Below are positions 3,972 to 34,170 of a stretch of 34,623 nucleotides of DNA, one piece after another. The notes under the pieces were generated by a model. The model ran no database searches and was not told the DNA's origin. It was given only the letters and a program-made list of their open reading frames with translations. A program made the translations under genes and the position numbers. Origin of the DNA: Chiloscyllium plagiosum (taxonomy: Eukaryota); assembly GCF_004010195.1 (NCBI RefSeq), contig NC_057718.1, positions 95,430,852-95,465,474 on the forward strand, in the 5' to 3' direction. How positions within the stretch are numbered: position 1 is the stretch's first letter; each line of letters opens with the position of its first letter.

Positions 3972-4605
3972 CATACCACAACCAAAAGGACTAGCCACAC
4001 TACCATACATCAGGAGCATCTCATAACTGACAGCCAGACTACTGCGACCCCTAGCACTCATAACGGCACACAAACCAACAGCCACGCTCAGACAATAACT
4101 CACCAGAACGAAGGACCCGATACCCAACATGAGCAAAACTAATGTAGTGTATAAAATACCATGCAAGGACTGCACAAAACACTATATAGGACAAACAGGA
4201 AGACCGCTAACAATCTGCATATATGAACATCAACTAGCCACGAAACGACACGACCAGCTATCCTTAGTAGCCACACACACAGACAACAAGCAACATGAAT
4301 TCGACTGGGACAACACTACTATCATAGGGCAAGCCAGACAGAGAACAGCCAGGGAATTCCTAGAGGCATGGCATTCATCCACAAACTCCATCAACAAACA
4401 CATCGACCTGGACCCAATATACCAACCACTACAGCGGACAGCTGAAACTGACAACCGGAAGCGGCAGGGACAGACCACTATAAACACCGGAGGAAACATC
4501 AAAGAAGCGCTTCGCAGGAGGCTCCCAAGCACTGATGATGTCGCCTAGCCAGGGGACGAAACGTTTGCAACAAAAACTTCCAGCTCGGCGAACAGAACCA
4601 CAACA
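3972..4605 (+). mobile_element. Penelope-like retroelement 3' part with GIY-YIG endonuclease remnant
   Basis: ORF 4129..4548 reads NVVYKIPCKDCTKHYIGQTGR...EH...REFLEAWHS..SIN (GIY-YIG). The upstream in-frame linker LPYIRSIS*LTARLLRPL...HKPTATLRQ* has two stops. 10-bp TSD TAGACTTTGA at 3962-3971 and 4606-4615. Confidence 0.92.
4529..4568 (+). ncRNA. Minimal type I hammerhead ribozyme motif at the PLE 3' end
   Basis: gca-CTGATGA-T-GTCGCCT-agcc-AGGGGAC-GAAA-C-GTT-tgc: conserved core, stem II with one mismatch, 3-bp stem I, palindromic ACGT in place of stem III. Confidence 0.7.
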
Positions 4606-4993
4606 TAGACTTTGAGATCAGGAAAATCCATGTCAAACCAGATTCAAACTGGTTTAATTGACTTGGGTCACATTCACTTGCTCTTACCGGTAAAATAAAT
4701 TTTCATTTGTTATTGGGTAAAAGTTATTTGGACTGAAATTACCTTTGTGTAAGAAATTTTATGCTCATTTGTAGCTTTCAAATATTCCCGAACTTTCTTC
4801 TGATAGAGTTGTATGTGTAAAATTGAATCGTTGTTTCATACTGTCTTGTCAATTTTAAAATTGCTACTGATGTTAATAGTGTTTAAAAGCTGTAATTTGC
4901 CGTAGGAATTGCAGATTAAATGGTTGCGAAGTGTGAATGAGCTATTTGAATTACTCGGCAATTCTGACTATTGATTGGCACATTTTGTTCTAG

Positions 4994-5086
4994 CTTTTCA
5001 ACAGATAACACCTCATCCACGCCTAATTCAAAGAACCTTGGATCAGCTTATACCATATAAAGGATGGAAGCTTTACTTTTCAGAAG
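4994..5086 (+). CDS. MCM8: MCM8 exon W1 ([30 protein letters not shown])
   Basis: Acceptor ttttgttctag|, donor GAAG|gtgag; 93 nt. An alternative acceptor (caacag| at 5005) is possible. Confidence 0.88.
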
Positions 5087-8000
5087 GTGAGCCTTCCCTT
5101 TCAAACTACTTGTTTTGGAAATAACTTCAATTACTGTATATGCTTATGTAAAAGTTGAATTTTTCAAACAAACATTTCAGGCTAAAAATCAGGAGGTTGA
5201 CCTTTACACTGACTTTGAGAGGTATGGTCTCCTAACATGAGGAGGTATGTAGTTGCGTTAGAGGCAGTACAGAGAAGATTCTGTAGTTTGATTCCAGAGA
5301 TGAGGGGTTTGTCTTCTGAAGCAAGACTGAGAGTTTTGGCTTAGATTCTTTGAAGTTTATAAGAATGAGAGTGGATCTGATTGTAGTAAATAAGATGCTA
5401 ATGGGAATTGACAAAGTAGATGTCAGGAGGGCTATTTCCCCCTGTGGAGCAATCTTGAATGCAAGATCACAGTTTTAGGATATTGAGTAGCAGATGTGCA
5501 ATAGTGATGAGGACAAATTCCTTCTTTCAAGGAGTCATGAATCTGTAGAATTCACGACCGCTGTGTGTGGTAGATGCCAGTAAATAAAGTATATTTACAG
5601 AGTAGATAGATTTTTAGTTAGTATTGGATTGTAGGGTTGTGGGGAGCAGACAGGAAAATGGATTTGAGGCCAAGATGAAATCAACCTTGATCATATTAAA
5701 TGGCGTAGCAGACTTGAGGGGCTGAATTGCCTACTCCTGTTCCTTGTTCTTATCATGCATGGTTGATTTGACCCCAGATGAAATCCAAAACTGACCATTG
5801 CAATCAAATGTAAAAACACAATAACGTGAATTAGAAGCAGGTATATGCTCCTTGGCTCCTTGAGCCAGCCCAGCCATCAAATAAGATCACGGCTGAGGAA
5901 TTGTAACCTCGACCCCACATTTTTGTCTCTCCCTTGATAACCTTTAACTGCTTGCTTATCAAGAAACTGTCCAACTCGCCCATAAAAATATTCAAAGATT
6001 CTGCCTGCACTATATTTTGAGGAAGACAATTCCAAAGAATCGCACCCCTCTGCGCGAAATAGTTTCTCCTCATCTGCTATTTAAATGAATAACCCTGATT
6101 TTGAAATGGTGAACCCCAGTTCTACTTTCTCCCTCAACAGGGCATCATTCCCGCATCTTTCAGAATCTGACATGTTTCAATCAAGACACCTTCTATTCTT
6201 CAAAACAGCAAGGATTTAAGGCTCGCCTGTCTAATCCTGCTTCAGTGATCATACTGTGCATATCAGGTGTTAGTCCAATAAACTTTACTGAACTGCTTCT
6301 AACACACTCATGTCCTTCCGTAAATAAGGGGATCAATACTGCACACCATCTTCCAGATGTGATCTCACCAATGCCCTGTAAAATGCAAATTTAACCTCAT
6401 GAGTTTTGATTTCAATTTCCCTTCAAATAAACAATAGCATTCTATTAGCTTTCCTAATTACTTGCTATACCTGTACAATAAACTTTTTATGATCCAAGCA
6501 TCAGTGCACCCAAATCCCACCGCATCTCAGAGTTGTGCAGACTCTCATCCATTTAGATAATAGAATTTTTTCAATTCTTCTGTTCAAATGGACAGTCATA
6601 TTCTCCCGCATTATGCTCAATTTACCAGATCTTTATCTAATTTCAACTGTTTCCATCCCTTTGTGACCTCCTTTTGCTGTCTCCCTAACTTATTTTCTGA
6701 CCTATTTTTGTATCCTCAATTTCAATCCCATAATTTTCAGAAATGTATAAAGTTAATCCTTCGACTGATCCTTGTGACACAACATTTGTTACATCTTGCC
6801 AATCAGAAAATGACCCATTTATACCTACTGTTTGTTTTCTATCAGCTAACCAATCCTCTTTCCAACTTATTAAGTCACCCCCTACACCATAAACTCTTAT
6901 TTGAAGAATGACCATTAATGTTTGGTGTCAAATGTTGGACAAGTTTAAAACATGCGAAAGTACTGTTAATATTTCAACAGAACTAATCACCAGGCAATGA
7001 GCATCTCCATCTATTAATGCAACTTGCTCTGAAAAATTATCTAAACAAAATATGTGACCTTGTTTGATCCAAATCACTGGGAAATTTGAACAATCACTAA
7101 TGCCAAGTACAGTAGTCCTCCCCACTCCCCTGCCCCCACTGTACCCGCAGGGGATAAGTTCCAAGACCTACCACAGAAGCCAGAAACTGCAGATAGGTGC
7201 GAACCCATTCATTTAAATGGGAAACGTACTTTCCTGGCAGCCTCCTGGTCCCTGGTTCTGGAACATTCCCTAGAATATGTTTGGGCTGCGATGACCCGTG
7301 AGTAACTGAAACTGGGCAAACCTGACCCGTAAATATGGTGGGGGGGGTCGCCCTGTGTAACAATTCAGTATAATTTGGATGATCAAGGAGCTCTGGGAAA
7401 ATGAAAATCATATTCAGGTTTAATATAAAAAGCTGTAGCGCCTGAGCAAATGAAGTACCTGATGCAAATGAAGGTGATTGTCAGAAATCAGTCATTGAAA
7501 TCTCAGGATGTGGGTGGAAGGGTATCATCATGTGAGCAAACTTTGACAACTCTTTCAATGACCTTCCGTCTTTTATATGTTTGGGAATGTGGACTGTTTA
7601 CTGGTTATTCCATGATGGTCAGTTTCATTGGCAACATCAGCAATAACGATGTATTTGGCAGCCTTAGAGCAGAGCCTGAGCCTTCCAGGTATAAATGATG
7701 CAAATACTAGGCTATGACTACAATAAGTGAAAAATGAACCACCTTCACTTGACTTCAAGTGGCACTTCTAACTACCCAGCATCATGGGGCAGAAGCTATC
7801 GTTTACCAACTAATCATTTCAAAACTATGACTGAATGAGTGGGGTAGGTGCAGGTTAATTGTACAATATAGGTAACAATTGCAAAACTGGTATCTCTAAT
7901 ATCAATAAAAGAGGGACTTCTTTCAAAGGTATCCTCACAGGAGGTTTTAGGTCATAACATCATTTTAAAATGTGTATTTGGAAAATTGGGATGATGGAAT

Positions 8001-33462: not shown

Positions 33463-33510
33463 ATTAAAAGAATAAATGTAATGTACATATCATTTTGTTT
33501 GTGCTGATAC
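33463..33510 (+). terminator. Probable MCM8 polyadenylation signal
   Basis: ATTAAA (33463-33468) and AATAAA (33471-33476) are followed by a CA and a T/GT-rich tract (cattttgtttgtgctg). Further AATAAA hexamers lie at 32630 and 32990. Confidence 0.55.
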
Positions 33511-33984
33511 CTGTATTAAGAATTTTATGCTTCATTTTTATTCTGTCATTGTCTGTGTATTTTATTTTTATTCGTTCCTAGAATATGATGTTGGTTATGC
33601 CAACATTTGTTGCCCGTCCGAATTTGTCTGGAAAATTGTACAGAGGATATCGCCCAAATTTTGAATTGCGTCCAAAAATGAAGGAGCGTTGAAACGTTTG
33701 GTATTCAAGTAGCCCTTCTTTACATGTGACCCAGAATAACTGTGTAGCATGCAGTTCATTGGAGACATAAAATACTGGAAAACATCCAAAATGTCTGGTC
33801 AATACATGCAAATCAAATATTATAAAATAAACCCGGTTGCTTTCAGCCCTGAGATAGGATGCTGCCGGCAGTGATTGTAATGAGATCAGCTAGGTGGGCA
33901 TCATAGAATGAGTACCCTAACTGAAGCTGTTAACATGGTCTAAGGAAGCTGGACCAGTTTCCAGTACTATGCATGAGTAAAATT

Positions 33985-34170
33985 AAAAATCATAACACCA
34001 GGTTATAGTCCAACAGGTTTATTTGGAAGTACTAACTTTCGGAGCACTGCTCCTTCATCGGGTAGCCAGTGAGGTAGGATCATAAGACAATTTATAGCGC
34101 AAGATCATAGTGTCATGCAACTGATATGTATATTGCAGGTTTCGGTTCATTAATATGTAAATCCCAGAAC
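33985..34170 (-). mobile_element. PLE-terminal repeat, family C, with hammerhead-like core
   Basis: Minus strand 34064->34029 reads tac-CCGATGA-A-GGAGC-agt-GCTCC-GAAA-G-TTA-gta, followed by cttccaaataaacctgttggactataacctggtgtt. Confidence 0.65.

What the first reader, a model, noticed from the sequence alone, without database searches (positions are those of the whole stretch)
3972..34170. Three to four distinct hammerhead-bearing Penelope-derived families in one gene locus
Seen: one architecture recurs in otherwise unrelated repeats: short stem I, CUGANGA, one extra nucleotide, stem II, GAAA, a palindromic 4-mer instead of stem III, then NUH. Family A (GGGC/GCCC stem) is at 13536, 14141-14168(-), 14886, 20092 and 29190. 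Family B (GTCNCC/GGNGAC stem) is at 4532, 27682 and about 27525-27560(-). Family C (GGAGC/GCTCC stem) is at 34029-34064(-), and a possible family D lies at 24566-24762. Stem II differs completely between families yet stays paired, which argues for selected RNA structure. Known: Penelope-like elements carry minimal type I hammerheads thought to act as dimers. Inference: this lineage hosts several abundant non-autonomous, retrozyme-like PLE derivatives that may be poorly catalogued.
Basis: partly seen in the sequence, partly recalled or inferred. Interest (0 to 1): 0.72.

Follow-up and report, generated by a model that had tools for sequence, protein, structure and literature searches.

The report
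Shark Penelope-element ends with hammerhead motifs
The repeats are real but ordinary: cut-short end pieces of several Penelope-like jumping genes in a shark gene, each with the small self-cutting RNA motif already known from such elements, although one family's end piece also serves as a working poly(A) site just behind that motif.

Summary
The motifs are at the stated places, in a shark MCM8 locus. Only 4 of the 11 named sites keep a complete minimal hammerhead (4532, 14168, 14886, 20092; none in 200 shuffles); the rest are decayed. They are 5'-truncated ends (pLTRs) of Penelope-like elements, with inverted arms, 30-36 nt tails and 10-15 bp target duplications. 'Family B' is two families, each tied to an RT/GIY-YIG reading frame; a further family (E) was missed. 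The same motif occurs in 18 of 81 distant Penelope loci, so it is the generic trait described in 2014. No tandem units were found, so 'retrozyme-like, non-autonomous' is not supported; coding partners of A, C, D and E were not found either. One extra: 1,255 RNA reads from a same-species library end in poly(A) tails 11-15 nt behind an AATAAA lying 9 nt after family C's predicted cut site. Self-cleavage was not tested. This scan reported these families many times before (106 notes in this genome fit 'hammerhead Penelope'). New member of a known kind; interest low.

The parts
3972..4605 (+). Family B1: 5'-truncated Penelope/Poseidon-type element; end of the reading frame (GIY-YIG endonuclease, two stops) running into the pLTR; 10-bp target duplication at 3962-3971 and 4606-4615
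   Evidence: tblastn 85-88% identity to P0002 and P0004 over 191-212 aa; duplication
4529..4568 (+). Complete minimal hammerhead B1: helix I 3 bp, core at 4532, stem II 6 positions with one G.G mismatch, ACGU palindrome, predicted cut after 4565; TATAAA 53 nt upstream of the core
13486..13660 (+). Family A insertion: short inverted arm 13486-13520, direct arm from about 13529 with decayed hammerhead (13536, G12 to A), 30-nt tail; 13-bp target duplication (13473, 13661)
14043..14920 (-). Family A insertion, long palindrome broken by an assembly gap (N 14368-14731): direct arm on the - strand with complete hammerhead at 14168, inverted arm on the + strand with complete hammerhead at 14886; 15-bp target duplication (14028, 14921); TTTTAT at -35/-36 and an initiator-like motif with its A at -3/-4 of the core
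20008..20217 (+). Youngest family A insertion: head-to-head arms 99% complementary centred on the hammerhead (complete, 20092), 36-nt tail, 15-bp target duplication (19993, 20218); probably absent in related organism B
   Evidence: contig 1 of run X10 stops aligning at 20218 and runs on
20940..21063 (-).
24566..24765 (+). Family D, old: short inverted arm 24566-24595 and direct arm with CUGANGA at 24732; two CCAAT boxes at -91 and -73; helix I 5 bp in the direct arm, four letters between GAAA and U-H, stem II not demonstrable
   Evidence: depth about tenfold above unique DNA and A24736T in most other copies
27484..27757 (.). Family B2: head-to-head pLTR pair (arms 27484-27600 and 27641-27757, 86% complementary) of a second Poseidon-type family; both hammerheads decayed (27559-, 27682+)
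   Evidence: tblastn to the C-terminus of P0008, 57% (E 4e-14) and 56% (E 1e-10)
29073..29316 (+). Family A partial tandem: tail (29073-29109), about 74 nt of post-tail sequence that is itself high-copy, then hammerhead (29190, decayed) to tail; 208-nt spacing; only one hammerhead
   Evidence: summed depth over 100,000 at 29126 in three DNA-type runs
32055..32215 (.). Family E (missed): old palindrome with decayed hammerheads in both arms; the family form, a 5-bp stem II related to A, is seen only in loose ends of other copies; boundaries approximate
33988..34170 (-). Family C pLTR: TATAAA at 34096-34091, decayed hammerhead 34064-34030 (U4 to C, palindrome broken), predicted cut after 34033; boundaries approximate
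34003..34023 (-). Poly(A) signal AATAAA (34023-34018) and poly(A) addition sites at 34006 and 34003, used by family C transcripts from somewhere in the genome
   Evidence: 798 and 457 reads with poly-T loose ends in run X21; no A-run in the window behind the site
4994..31824 (+). Host gene, DNA helicase MCM8 (exons picked by eye, span approximate); A, B2 and D copies lie in its introns, B1 before the first exon I picked, C and E behind the stop codon
   Evidence: exon 22312-22530 matches MCM8 at E 1.4e-30; exon translations

Best explanation
These are dead, 5'-truncated insertions of the terminal repeat (pLTR) of five or six ordinary endonuclease-bearing Penelope-like element families of carpet sharks. 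Each family's pLTR carries the minimal type I hammerhead typical of animal Penelope elements: no helix III of its own, only a palindrome through which two copies can pair. Shown here: the motifs, the insertion anatomy, the link of B1 and B2 to RT/GIY-YIG frames, very high abundance, recent activity of A, decay of most copies, often at CpG positions of the core. Inferred: the element's protein starts reverse transcription at the tail, as shown in vitro for a lizard Poseidon element, and copies back towards the 5' end of the RNA; if transcription starts just before the hammerhead, most products are 125-nt stubs that begin at the motif, often with a fold-back arm. Inferred, not tested: the motif cleaves slowly, as a dimer or with the element's protein, in intact elements; the stubs in these introns do not cleave.
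For: B1 hammerhead follows a GIY-YIG frame 85-88% identical to shark RT-EN proteins, and P0004 reads through it. Both B2 arms match the C-terminus of P0008, which is 75% identical to a Chiloscyllium RT-EN protein and 62% to P0002. Target duplications of 10, 13, 15 and 15 bp in 4 of 10 insertions examined. Inverted arm plus a 30-36 nt tail on the direct arm, as described in PMC8557442 and PMC3846280 (passages). The same descriptor finds the motif in 18 of 81 distant loci fetched with the shark protein alignments, 16 of the 18 on the coding strand, and none in 20 shuffles. Family A sequence extends at least 199 nt upstream of the core, and post-tail sequence is high-copy, as expected if longer and tandem elements exist. 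5 of 8 A arms begin within -7 to +14 of the core; TATA-like and initiator-like motifs lie just upstream. PMC4209133 reports that most such motifs are single and probably belong to truncated elements.
Against: No coding partner was found for A, C, D or E (one search found nothing; C, D, E not searched). No clear target duplication for 6 of 10 insertions. Family A's helix I is only 2 bp plus a mismatch. The promoter reading rests on motif matches chosen after looking, TTTTAT is not a canonical TATA box, and TATA was not enriched near hammerheads of distant loci (2 of 18, background 0.06). 3 of 8 A arms do not begin at the core. No pile-up of RNA ends at predicted cut sites, which a 3'-tag library could hardly show.
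Confidence: 0.85

Rival explanations
1. One or more of A, C, D, E is a true non-autonomous family (retrozyme-like or SINE-like) with its own short master copies, moved in trans by Penelope proteins, perhaps through a small circular RNA such as the 208-nt unit at 29073-29316.
For: Most A copies are about 125 nt with a clustered 5' end and possible promoter motifs at that end; summed depth on A is four to five orders of magnitude above unique DNA; 29073-29316 has a 208-nt tail-to-tail spacing; tandem hammerhead repeats were reported in one chondrichthyan genome (bioRxiv 10.64898/2026.07.22.740005).
Against: No tandem array of such units; 29073-29316 holds one hammerhead; copies keep the core instead of starting at the cut site; 5' ends and palindrome centres differ from copy to copy; long A arms exist; B1 and B2 belong to coding elements.
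Confidence: 0.1
2. The motif is kept not as a ribozyme but as a protein-binding or promoter-downstream signal of the element; cleavage is vestigial.
For: Low in vitro activity of minimal hammerheads (PMC4209133); in the lizard element cleavage needed the protein, was not needed for insertion in vitro, and no RNA-seq ends were seen at the site (PMC11167929); 424 family C reads run on past 34063, the upstream edge of the motif; only 1 of 9 Xenopus dimers cleaved (bioRxiv).
Against: The catalytic core is kept exactly across shark families and in 18 of 81 distant loci; C3G and G8C mutants abolish and the double mutant partly restores cleavage in the lizard element. This rival concerns function only and is compatible with the best explanation's account of origin.
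Confidence: 0.25
3. The motifs are chance matches inside unrelated repeats.
For: With one mismatch per box the loose pattern is common by chance (49 observed, shuffle mean 30.6); no Rfam hammerhead hit; folding z-scores are unremarkable; D and E copies are too decayed to show a stem II here.
Against: 4 complete sites against none in 200 shuffles; same position in the element as in distant relatives.
Confidence: 0.02

Closest known systems
Minimal hammerheads (min-HHR) in pLTRs of metazoan Penelope-like elements (Cervera and De la Pena 2014, PMC4209133; parts 1-2 of 4 read)
   Same: Type I layout, extra nucleotide between A9 and 10.1, G10.1-C11.1 pair, palindromic positions in place of helix III, several families per genome, mostly solo copies, some pairs on opposite strands 100-700 bp apart.
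   Different: Sharks are not named in the parts read or in the searchable supplement (one file not searchable). Stem II of A is 4 bp and helix I 2 bp, shorter than the 7-8 and 4-5 bp given for Schistosoma. Abundance appears far above the 4,000-9,000 motifs given for coelacanth and Xenopus (depth ratios only).
Insertion anatomy of endonuclease-bearing Penelope-like elements: partial tandem, inverted 5'-truncated copy, 30-40 bp tail, target duplication (PMC8557442 and PMC3846280, passages read)
   Same: Head-to-head arms, tail on one arm only, duplications, assembly gap inside the longest palindrome, TATA and initiator-like motifs in the pLTR.
   Different: Here most insertions are reduced to the pLTR alone; duplications are 10-15 bp against 8-10 bp in the rotifer examples.
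Poseidon element of Anolis carolinensis, PAc (Frangieh et al. 2024, PMC11167929; parts 1-2 of 4 read)
   Same: RT plus C-terminal GIY-YIG, hammerhead at the pLTR-ORF junction, ends at a tail defined by internal start of reverse transcription.
   Different: No biochemical data for the shark families; clade of A, C, D, E not determined here.
Non-LTR retrozymes of animals (PMC7229834, passages; bioRxiv 10.64898/2026.07.22.740005, parts 1-3 of 5)
   Same: Type I hammerheads related to Penelope pLTRs; non-coding short units.
   Different: Retrozymes are head-to-tail tandem repeats with a hammerhead in each unit, in the 2020 paper canonical ones with tertiary contacts; none of this is present in the window.
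Clec2 3'-UTR hammerhead of rodents (as described in review PMC6765202, passage)
   Same: A cut site lying upstream of a poly(A) signal, so that cleavage would remove the tail; family C has this geometry.
   Different: Clec2's is a discontinuous, domesticated ribozyme with shown activity; family C is a transposon motif with no shown cleavage.

Membership tests
PLE minimal hammerhead | Core boxes CUGANGA and GAAA, U-H | tested here: met
   Complete at 4532, 14168, 14886, 20092 (4 of 11 named sites); none in 200 shuffles. Not met in the C, D, B2 and two A copies of this window.
PLE minimal hammerhead | Extra nucleotide after A9 and G10.1-C11.1 pair | tested here: met
   A, B1 and C copies; decayed in both B2 arms; not shown for D.
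PLE minimal hammerhead | Palindrome in place of helix III allowing a dimer | tested here: met
   ACGU in the four complete sites. A named two-strand fold with stem II and the 4-bp intermolecular helix evaluates at -18.9 (A) and -17.5 (B1) kcal/mol, but the predicted best homodimer of A pairs in another way, at -24.1.
PLE minimal hammerhead | Covariation within a family | tested here: inconclusive
   Stem II identical in 5 of 5 A copies; between B1 and B2 the third helix I pair changes G-C to U-A, read by eye from 3 copies.
PLE minimal hammerhead | Self-cleavage as a dimer or with protein | not testable with these tools
   Bench test; the one RNA library laid cannot show such ends.
Endonuclease-bearing Penelope-like element | RT plus C-terminal GIY-YIG frame upstream of the pLTR (B1, B2) | tested here: met
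   B1 in the window, B2 through P0008. Pfam scores for GIY-YIG and RT in these proteins are mostly below the curated cut-offs; the window fragment alone had no Pfam hit.
Endonuclease-bearing Penelope-like element | RT plus GIY-YIG frame for families A, C, D, E | tested here: inconclusive
   One search with a translated A pLTR found nothing; no genome is held; C, D, E not searched.
Endonuclease-bearing Penelope-like element | Inverted truncated arm, 30-40 nt tail, target duplication | tested here: met
   Inverted arms in three A insertions, B2, D and E; tails of 30 and 36 nt in A; duplications in 4 of 10 insertions.
Non-LTR retrozyme | At least two consecutive head-to-tail units, each with a complete hammerhead | tested here: not met
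   No tandem repeat of period above 22 in the window; 29073-29316 has one, decayed, hammerhead. Other loci of the genome were not examined.
Non-LTR retrozyme | Canonical helix sizes (6-bp helix I with loop 1-loop 2 contacts) | tested here: not met
   Helix I 2-3 bp in A, B, C; 5 bp in one D arm.
Non-LTR retrozyme | Unit-length circular RNA | not testable with these tools
   Only a poly(A)-primed single-cell library was laid as raw reads.

The most novel reading that the evidence does not exclude
In family C the pLTR works like the R region of an LTR: transcription starts just before the hammerhead and poly(A) is added just after it, so a full-length element RNA carries one hammerhead at each end, which supplies the dimer, and cleavage would strip cap end and tail to give a unit-length RNA. 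Scattered intact C copies that end host transcripts would then be ribozyme-gated poly(A) sites, a transposon-borne counterpart of the Clec2 switch, used by about 1 in 10,000 records of a shark single-cell library.
Probability: 0.1. Interest if true: 0.65.

Novelty: new member of a known kind. Interest (0 to 1): 0.25.

Why it matters
As found, it extends a motif described in 2014 to carpet sharks, where it is very abundant and where families of different ages sit side by side; this is useful for repeat annotation and as material for asking what the hammerhead does for Penelope elements, which the papers read call unclear. The poly(A) site in family C gives a concrete, cheap test: a used poly(A) signal lies 9 nt behind the predicted cut, so cleavage in cells should leave tail-less ends at one known base. 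If cleavage were shown there, a transposon would be spreading a self-cutting 3'-end switch through host transcripts.

Tried and rejected
Whole genome not held. Rfam at E up to 5: no hammerhead family; the mir-61 match at 20050-20139 reflects the DNA palindrome. Exact family A pattern: nothing in viral or metagenome contigs. Protein search with the translated A pLTR (29183-29317): 4 candidates, none significant. Viral contigs gave one weak locus. No RNA holder listed among indexed runs; this is no evidence on expression. No place where many RNA molecules begin or end, uninformative for a 3'-tag library. Look-ups of earlier findings by sequence for A, C and D returned nothing, nor did one for poly(A) words. 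AATAAA behind the hammerhead is not a general trait: 4 of 18 distant loci, two of them near-identical, against a background of 0.09, and absent in the A, B and D copies. The row for E is out of register by my offset and is not used. Rejected: expression of these particular copies (6,594 of 11,757 laid reads are under 90% identical to the window, only 244 are 99% or more, unique exons have almost no depth); internal oligo-dT priming at the C site (no A-run in this copy; other copies' loose ends are T-rich on that strand); copies as products of ribozyme cleavage (they keep the core upstream of the cut). Lunse et al. 2017 is not held; I know only its title from the reference list of PMC6765202. 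Supplements of the 2026 preprint are closed, one 2014 supplement file could not be searched and figures are not held; they may list chondrichthyan motifs. Dfam and Repbase could not be consulted.
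Full report
Setting. The window is a shark MCM8 locus: exon 22312-22530 matches MCM8 at E 1.4e-30, and the reading-frame fragment at 4099-4545 is 87-89% identical to predicted proteins of Chiloscyllium punctatum and Hemiscyllium ocellatum. No whole genome is held.

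Observation. Every named site holds a hammerhead-like motif or its remnant. A loose descriptor with exact boxes finds 4 sites against 0.2 in shuffles; a full descriptor finds 4 (4532, 14168, 14886, 20092) against none in 200 shuffles. These are 4 of the 11 named sites. The others have lost core letters: G12 to A at 13536 and 29190, U16.1 to C at 27559, G12 to C at 27682, U4 to C at 34061; several changes fall on CpG positions, which suggests methylation decay (inference). Stem II is 4 bp in A, 5 bp in C and 6 positions in B; helix I is 2 bp plus a mismatch in A and 3 bp in B and C. Stem II is identical in all 5 A copies, so the covariation is between families, not within. Folding is no better than shuffles and Rfam has no hit, as expected for so small a motif. 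D is a real repeat with an inverted arm but too decayed to show a stem II.

What the repeats are. B1 (3972-4605) is the end of a Penelope/Poseidon-type frame, 85-88% identical to shark RT-endonuclease proteins, followed by the hammerhead and closed by a 10-bp duplication. The palindrome at 27484-27757 is a different family: both arms match the read-through C-terminus of P0008 (57% and 56%), a protein 75% identical to Chiloscyllium P0017 but 62% to P0002. So 'family B' is two coding families. Family A occurs as five insertions. Three have an inverted arm and duplications of 13, 15 and 15 bp, two of them with a clean 30 or 36 nt tail on the direct arm only; the longest spans an assembly gap and reaches at least 199 nt upstream of the core. 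This is the anatomy described for endonuclease-bearing elements in PMC8557442 and PMC3846280 (passages). 29073-29316 is a partial tandem with a single hammerhead. No clear duplication was found for 6 of the 10 insertions examined. No coding partner was found for A; C, D and E were not searched.

Control. With alignments of the shark proteins I fetched 81 distant loci (80 of 160 confirmed metagenome matches were kept by the tool, plus 1 viral-collection locus). The same descriptor finds the motif in 18 of 81, 16 on the coding strand, and never in 20 shuffles; many contigs are short, and some pairs are near-identical. The architecture is thus a generic trait of these elements, as PMC4209133 reported (parts 1-2 of 4 read), including many families per genome and mostly solo copies.

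Abundance and age. On 19900-34300, summed contig depth in three DNA-type runs is 1.7-2.9 million on A, 0.5-1.2 million on C, 71,000-117,000 on E, 17,000-49,000 on B2 and 220-1,180 on D, against about 3-90 on unique DNA. The tool warns that this is no copy number; I read it only as orders of magnitude. D, B2 and E positions are covered by contigs of related organisms, while a contig of organism B stops aligning exactly at the duplication at 20218 and runs on, so the 20008-20217 copy is probably absent there: family A moved recently (inference from one contig). Only 40 of 1,054 letter differences and a few loose ends were shown, so family consensus forms could not be read.

RNA. One raw single-cell poly(A) library of the same species label was laid (about 2 in 100 of the run; 12,955,460 records, 11,757 laid). 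Most laid reads are under 90% identical to the window, so they come from other copies. At family C, 798 and 457 reads have poly-T loose ends at 34003 and 34006, with first mates mainly on the + strand (depth 288 against 45). On the element's strand these sites lie 11-15 nt behind AATAAA (34023-34018), which begins 9 nt after the predicted cut (after 34033); no A-run follows in the DNA. I read this as true polyadenylation inside the C pLTR; that the first mate carries barcode and oligo-dT is inferred from the library label and the 68-nt median loose length. How many loci supply the reads, and whether they are element or host transcripts, is unknown. 424 reads run on past 34063, the upstream edge of the motif, so at least some RNAs with this motif are uncut. 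No such signal follows the A, B or D motifs, and it is not clearly enriched in distant loci (4 of 18, background 0.09). Searches for it in papers and in earlier notes found no description; that library lacks most subscription journals.

Mechanism. Shown for a lizard Poseidon element: reverse transcription starts inside the RNA at the tail and runs to the 5' end, and the hammerhead cleaves only with the protein and is not needed for insertion in vitro (PMC11167929, parts 1-2 of 4). In the window 5 of 8 A arms begin within -7 to +14 of the core (two starts read by eye), TTTTAT lies at -35/-36 and an initiator-like motif at -3/-4; TATAAA lies at -35 in C and -53 in B1 (motifs chosen after looking). 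The simplest reading is that transcription starts just before the hammerhead and that the stubs are copies from tail to 5' end. The copies keep the core, so they are not cleavage products. Family C copies extend beyond the poly(A) site (loose ends at 33994), so their template was not the polyadenylated 3' end. Promoter, cleavage and dimer formation are inferred, not shown. Earlier notes of this scan state the same idea about clustered 5' ends; they are not independent evidence.

Comparison and novelty. It works like, and is a member of, the minimal hammerheads of animal Penelope-like elements; B1 and B2 meet the coding test, A, C, D and E meet the anatomy only. It fails the retrozyme test: no tandem units, non-canonical helices. 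A 2026 preprint already derives animal retrozymes from pLTRs and reports them in one chondrichthyan (parts 1-3 of 5). I found no held paper on these shark families (supplements, one file not searchable; of most listed papers I saw only the listing). Dfam, Repbase and Lunse et al. 2017 could not be seen. PMC7229834, PMC6765202, PMC2377424 and PMC6155905 were seen as passages. The scan itself has 106 notes fitting 'hammerhead Penelope' in this genome.

Verdict. Observation partly confirmed, interpretation partly supported. New member of a known kind; interest 0.25, most of it from the family C poly(A) site.

Noticed in passing
window 34003-34023 (-): Family C pLTR is a used poly(A) site: 1,255 reads with poly-T ends, about 1 in 10,000 records read; this copy lies behind MCM8 on the opposite strand and could end a convergent transcript.
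   Followed up: partly
window 32055-32215: An old palindrome of a further hammerhead-bearing family (E), related to A downstream of the motif.
   Followed up: partly
window 29073-29182: Tail followed by about 74 nt of high-copy sequence with an ATG at about 29147; the tail ends in a pyrimidine run plus AG that looks like a splice acceptor. Possibly the start of family A's reading frame.
   Followed up: partly
window 24566-24765: Family D has four letters between GAAA and U-H, a 5-bp helix I and only 9-10 letters between the core boxes; if real, a variant with a very short stem II. Two CCAAT boxes lie upstream.
   Followed up: partly
P0005, P0006: Chiloscyllium isoform models of MAP3K7 and 5'-nucleotidase domain-containing protein 1 include pieces of the B1 endonuclease frame: exonised element or gene-model artefact.
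   Followed up: no
P0007, P0010-P0013, P0016: The nearest non-shark relatives of the B1 endonuclease are from trematodes (46-48%) and unnamed ENA contigs (53-67%); closeness worth a tree.
   Followed up: no
window 1610-2632, 20386-20504, 28584-29724; 10976-11286, 31313-31605; 7718-7839, 9015-9147, 13700-15300, 18190-18570: Other dispersed repeats: the first group looks like LINE 3' ends, the second like a SINE (labels recalled, not tested). The 14043-14920 and 29073-29316 copies sit inside such repeats.
   Followed up: no
window 14368-14731: The assembly gap lies at the centre of the long family A palindrome, probably caused by it.
   Followed up: partly
window 11369-11440: Weak Rfam match to SNORD15 (27.9 bits, cut-off 75) in an intron; probably chance.
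   Followed up: no
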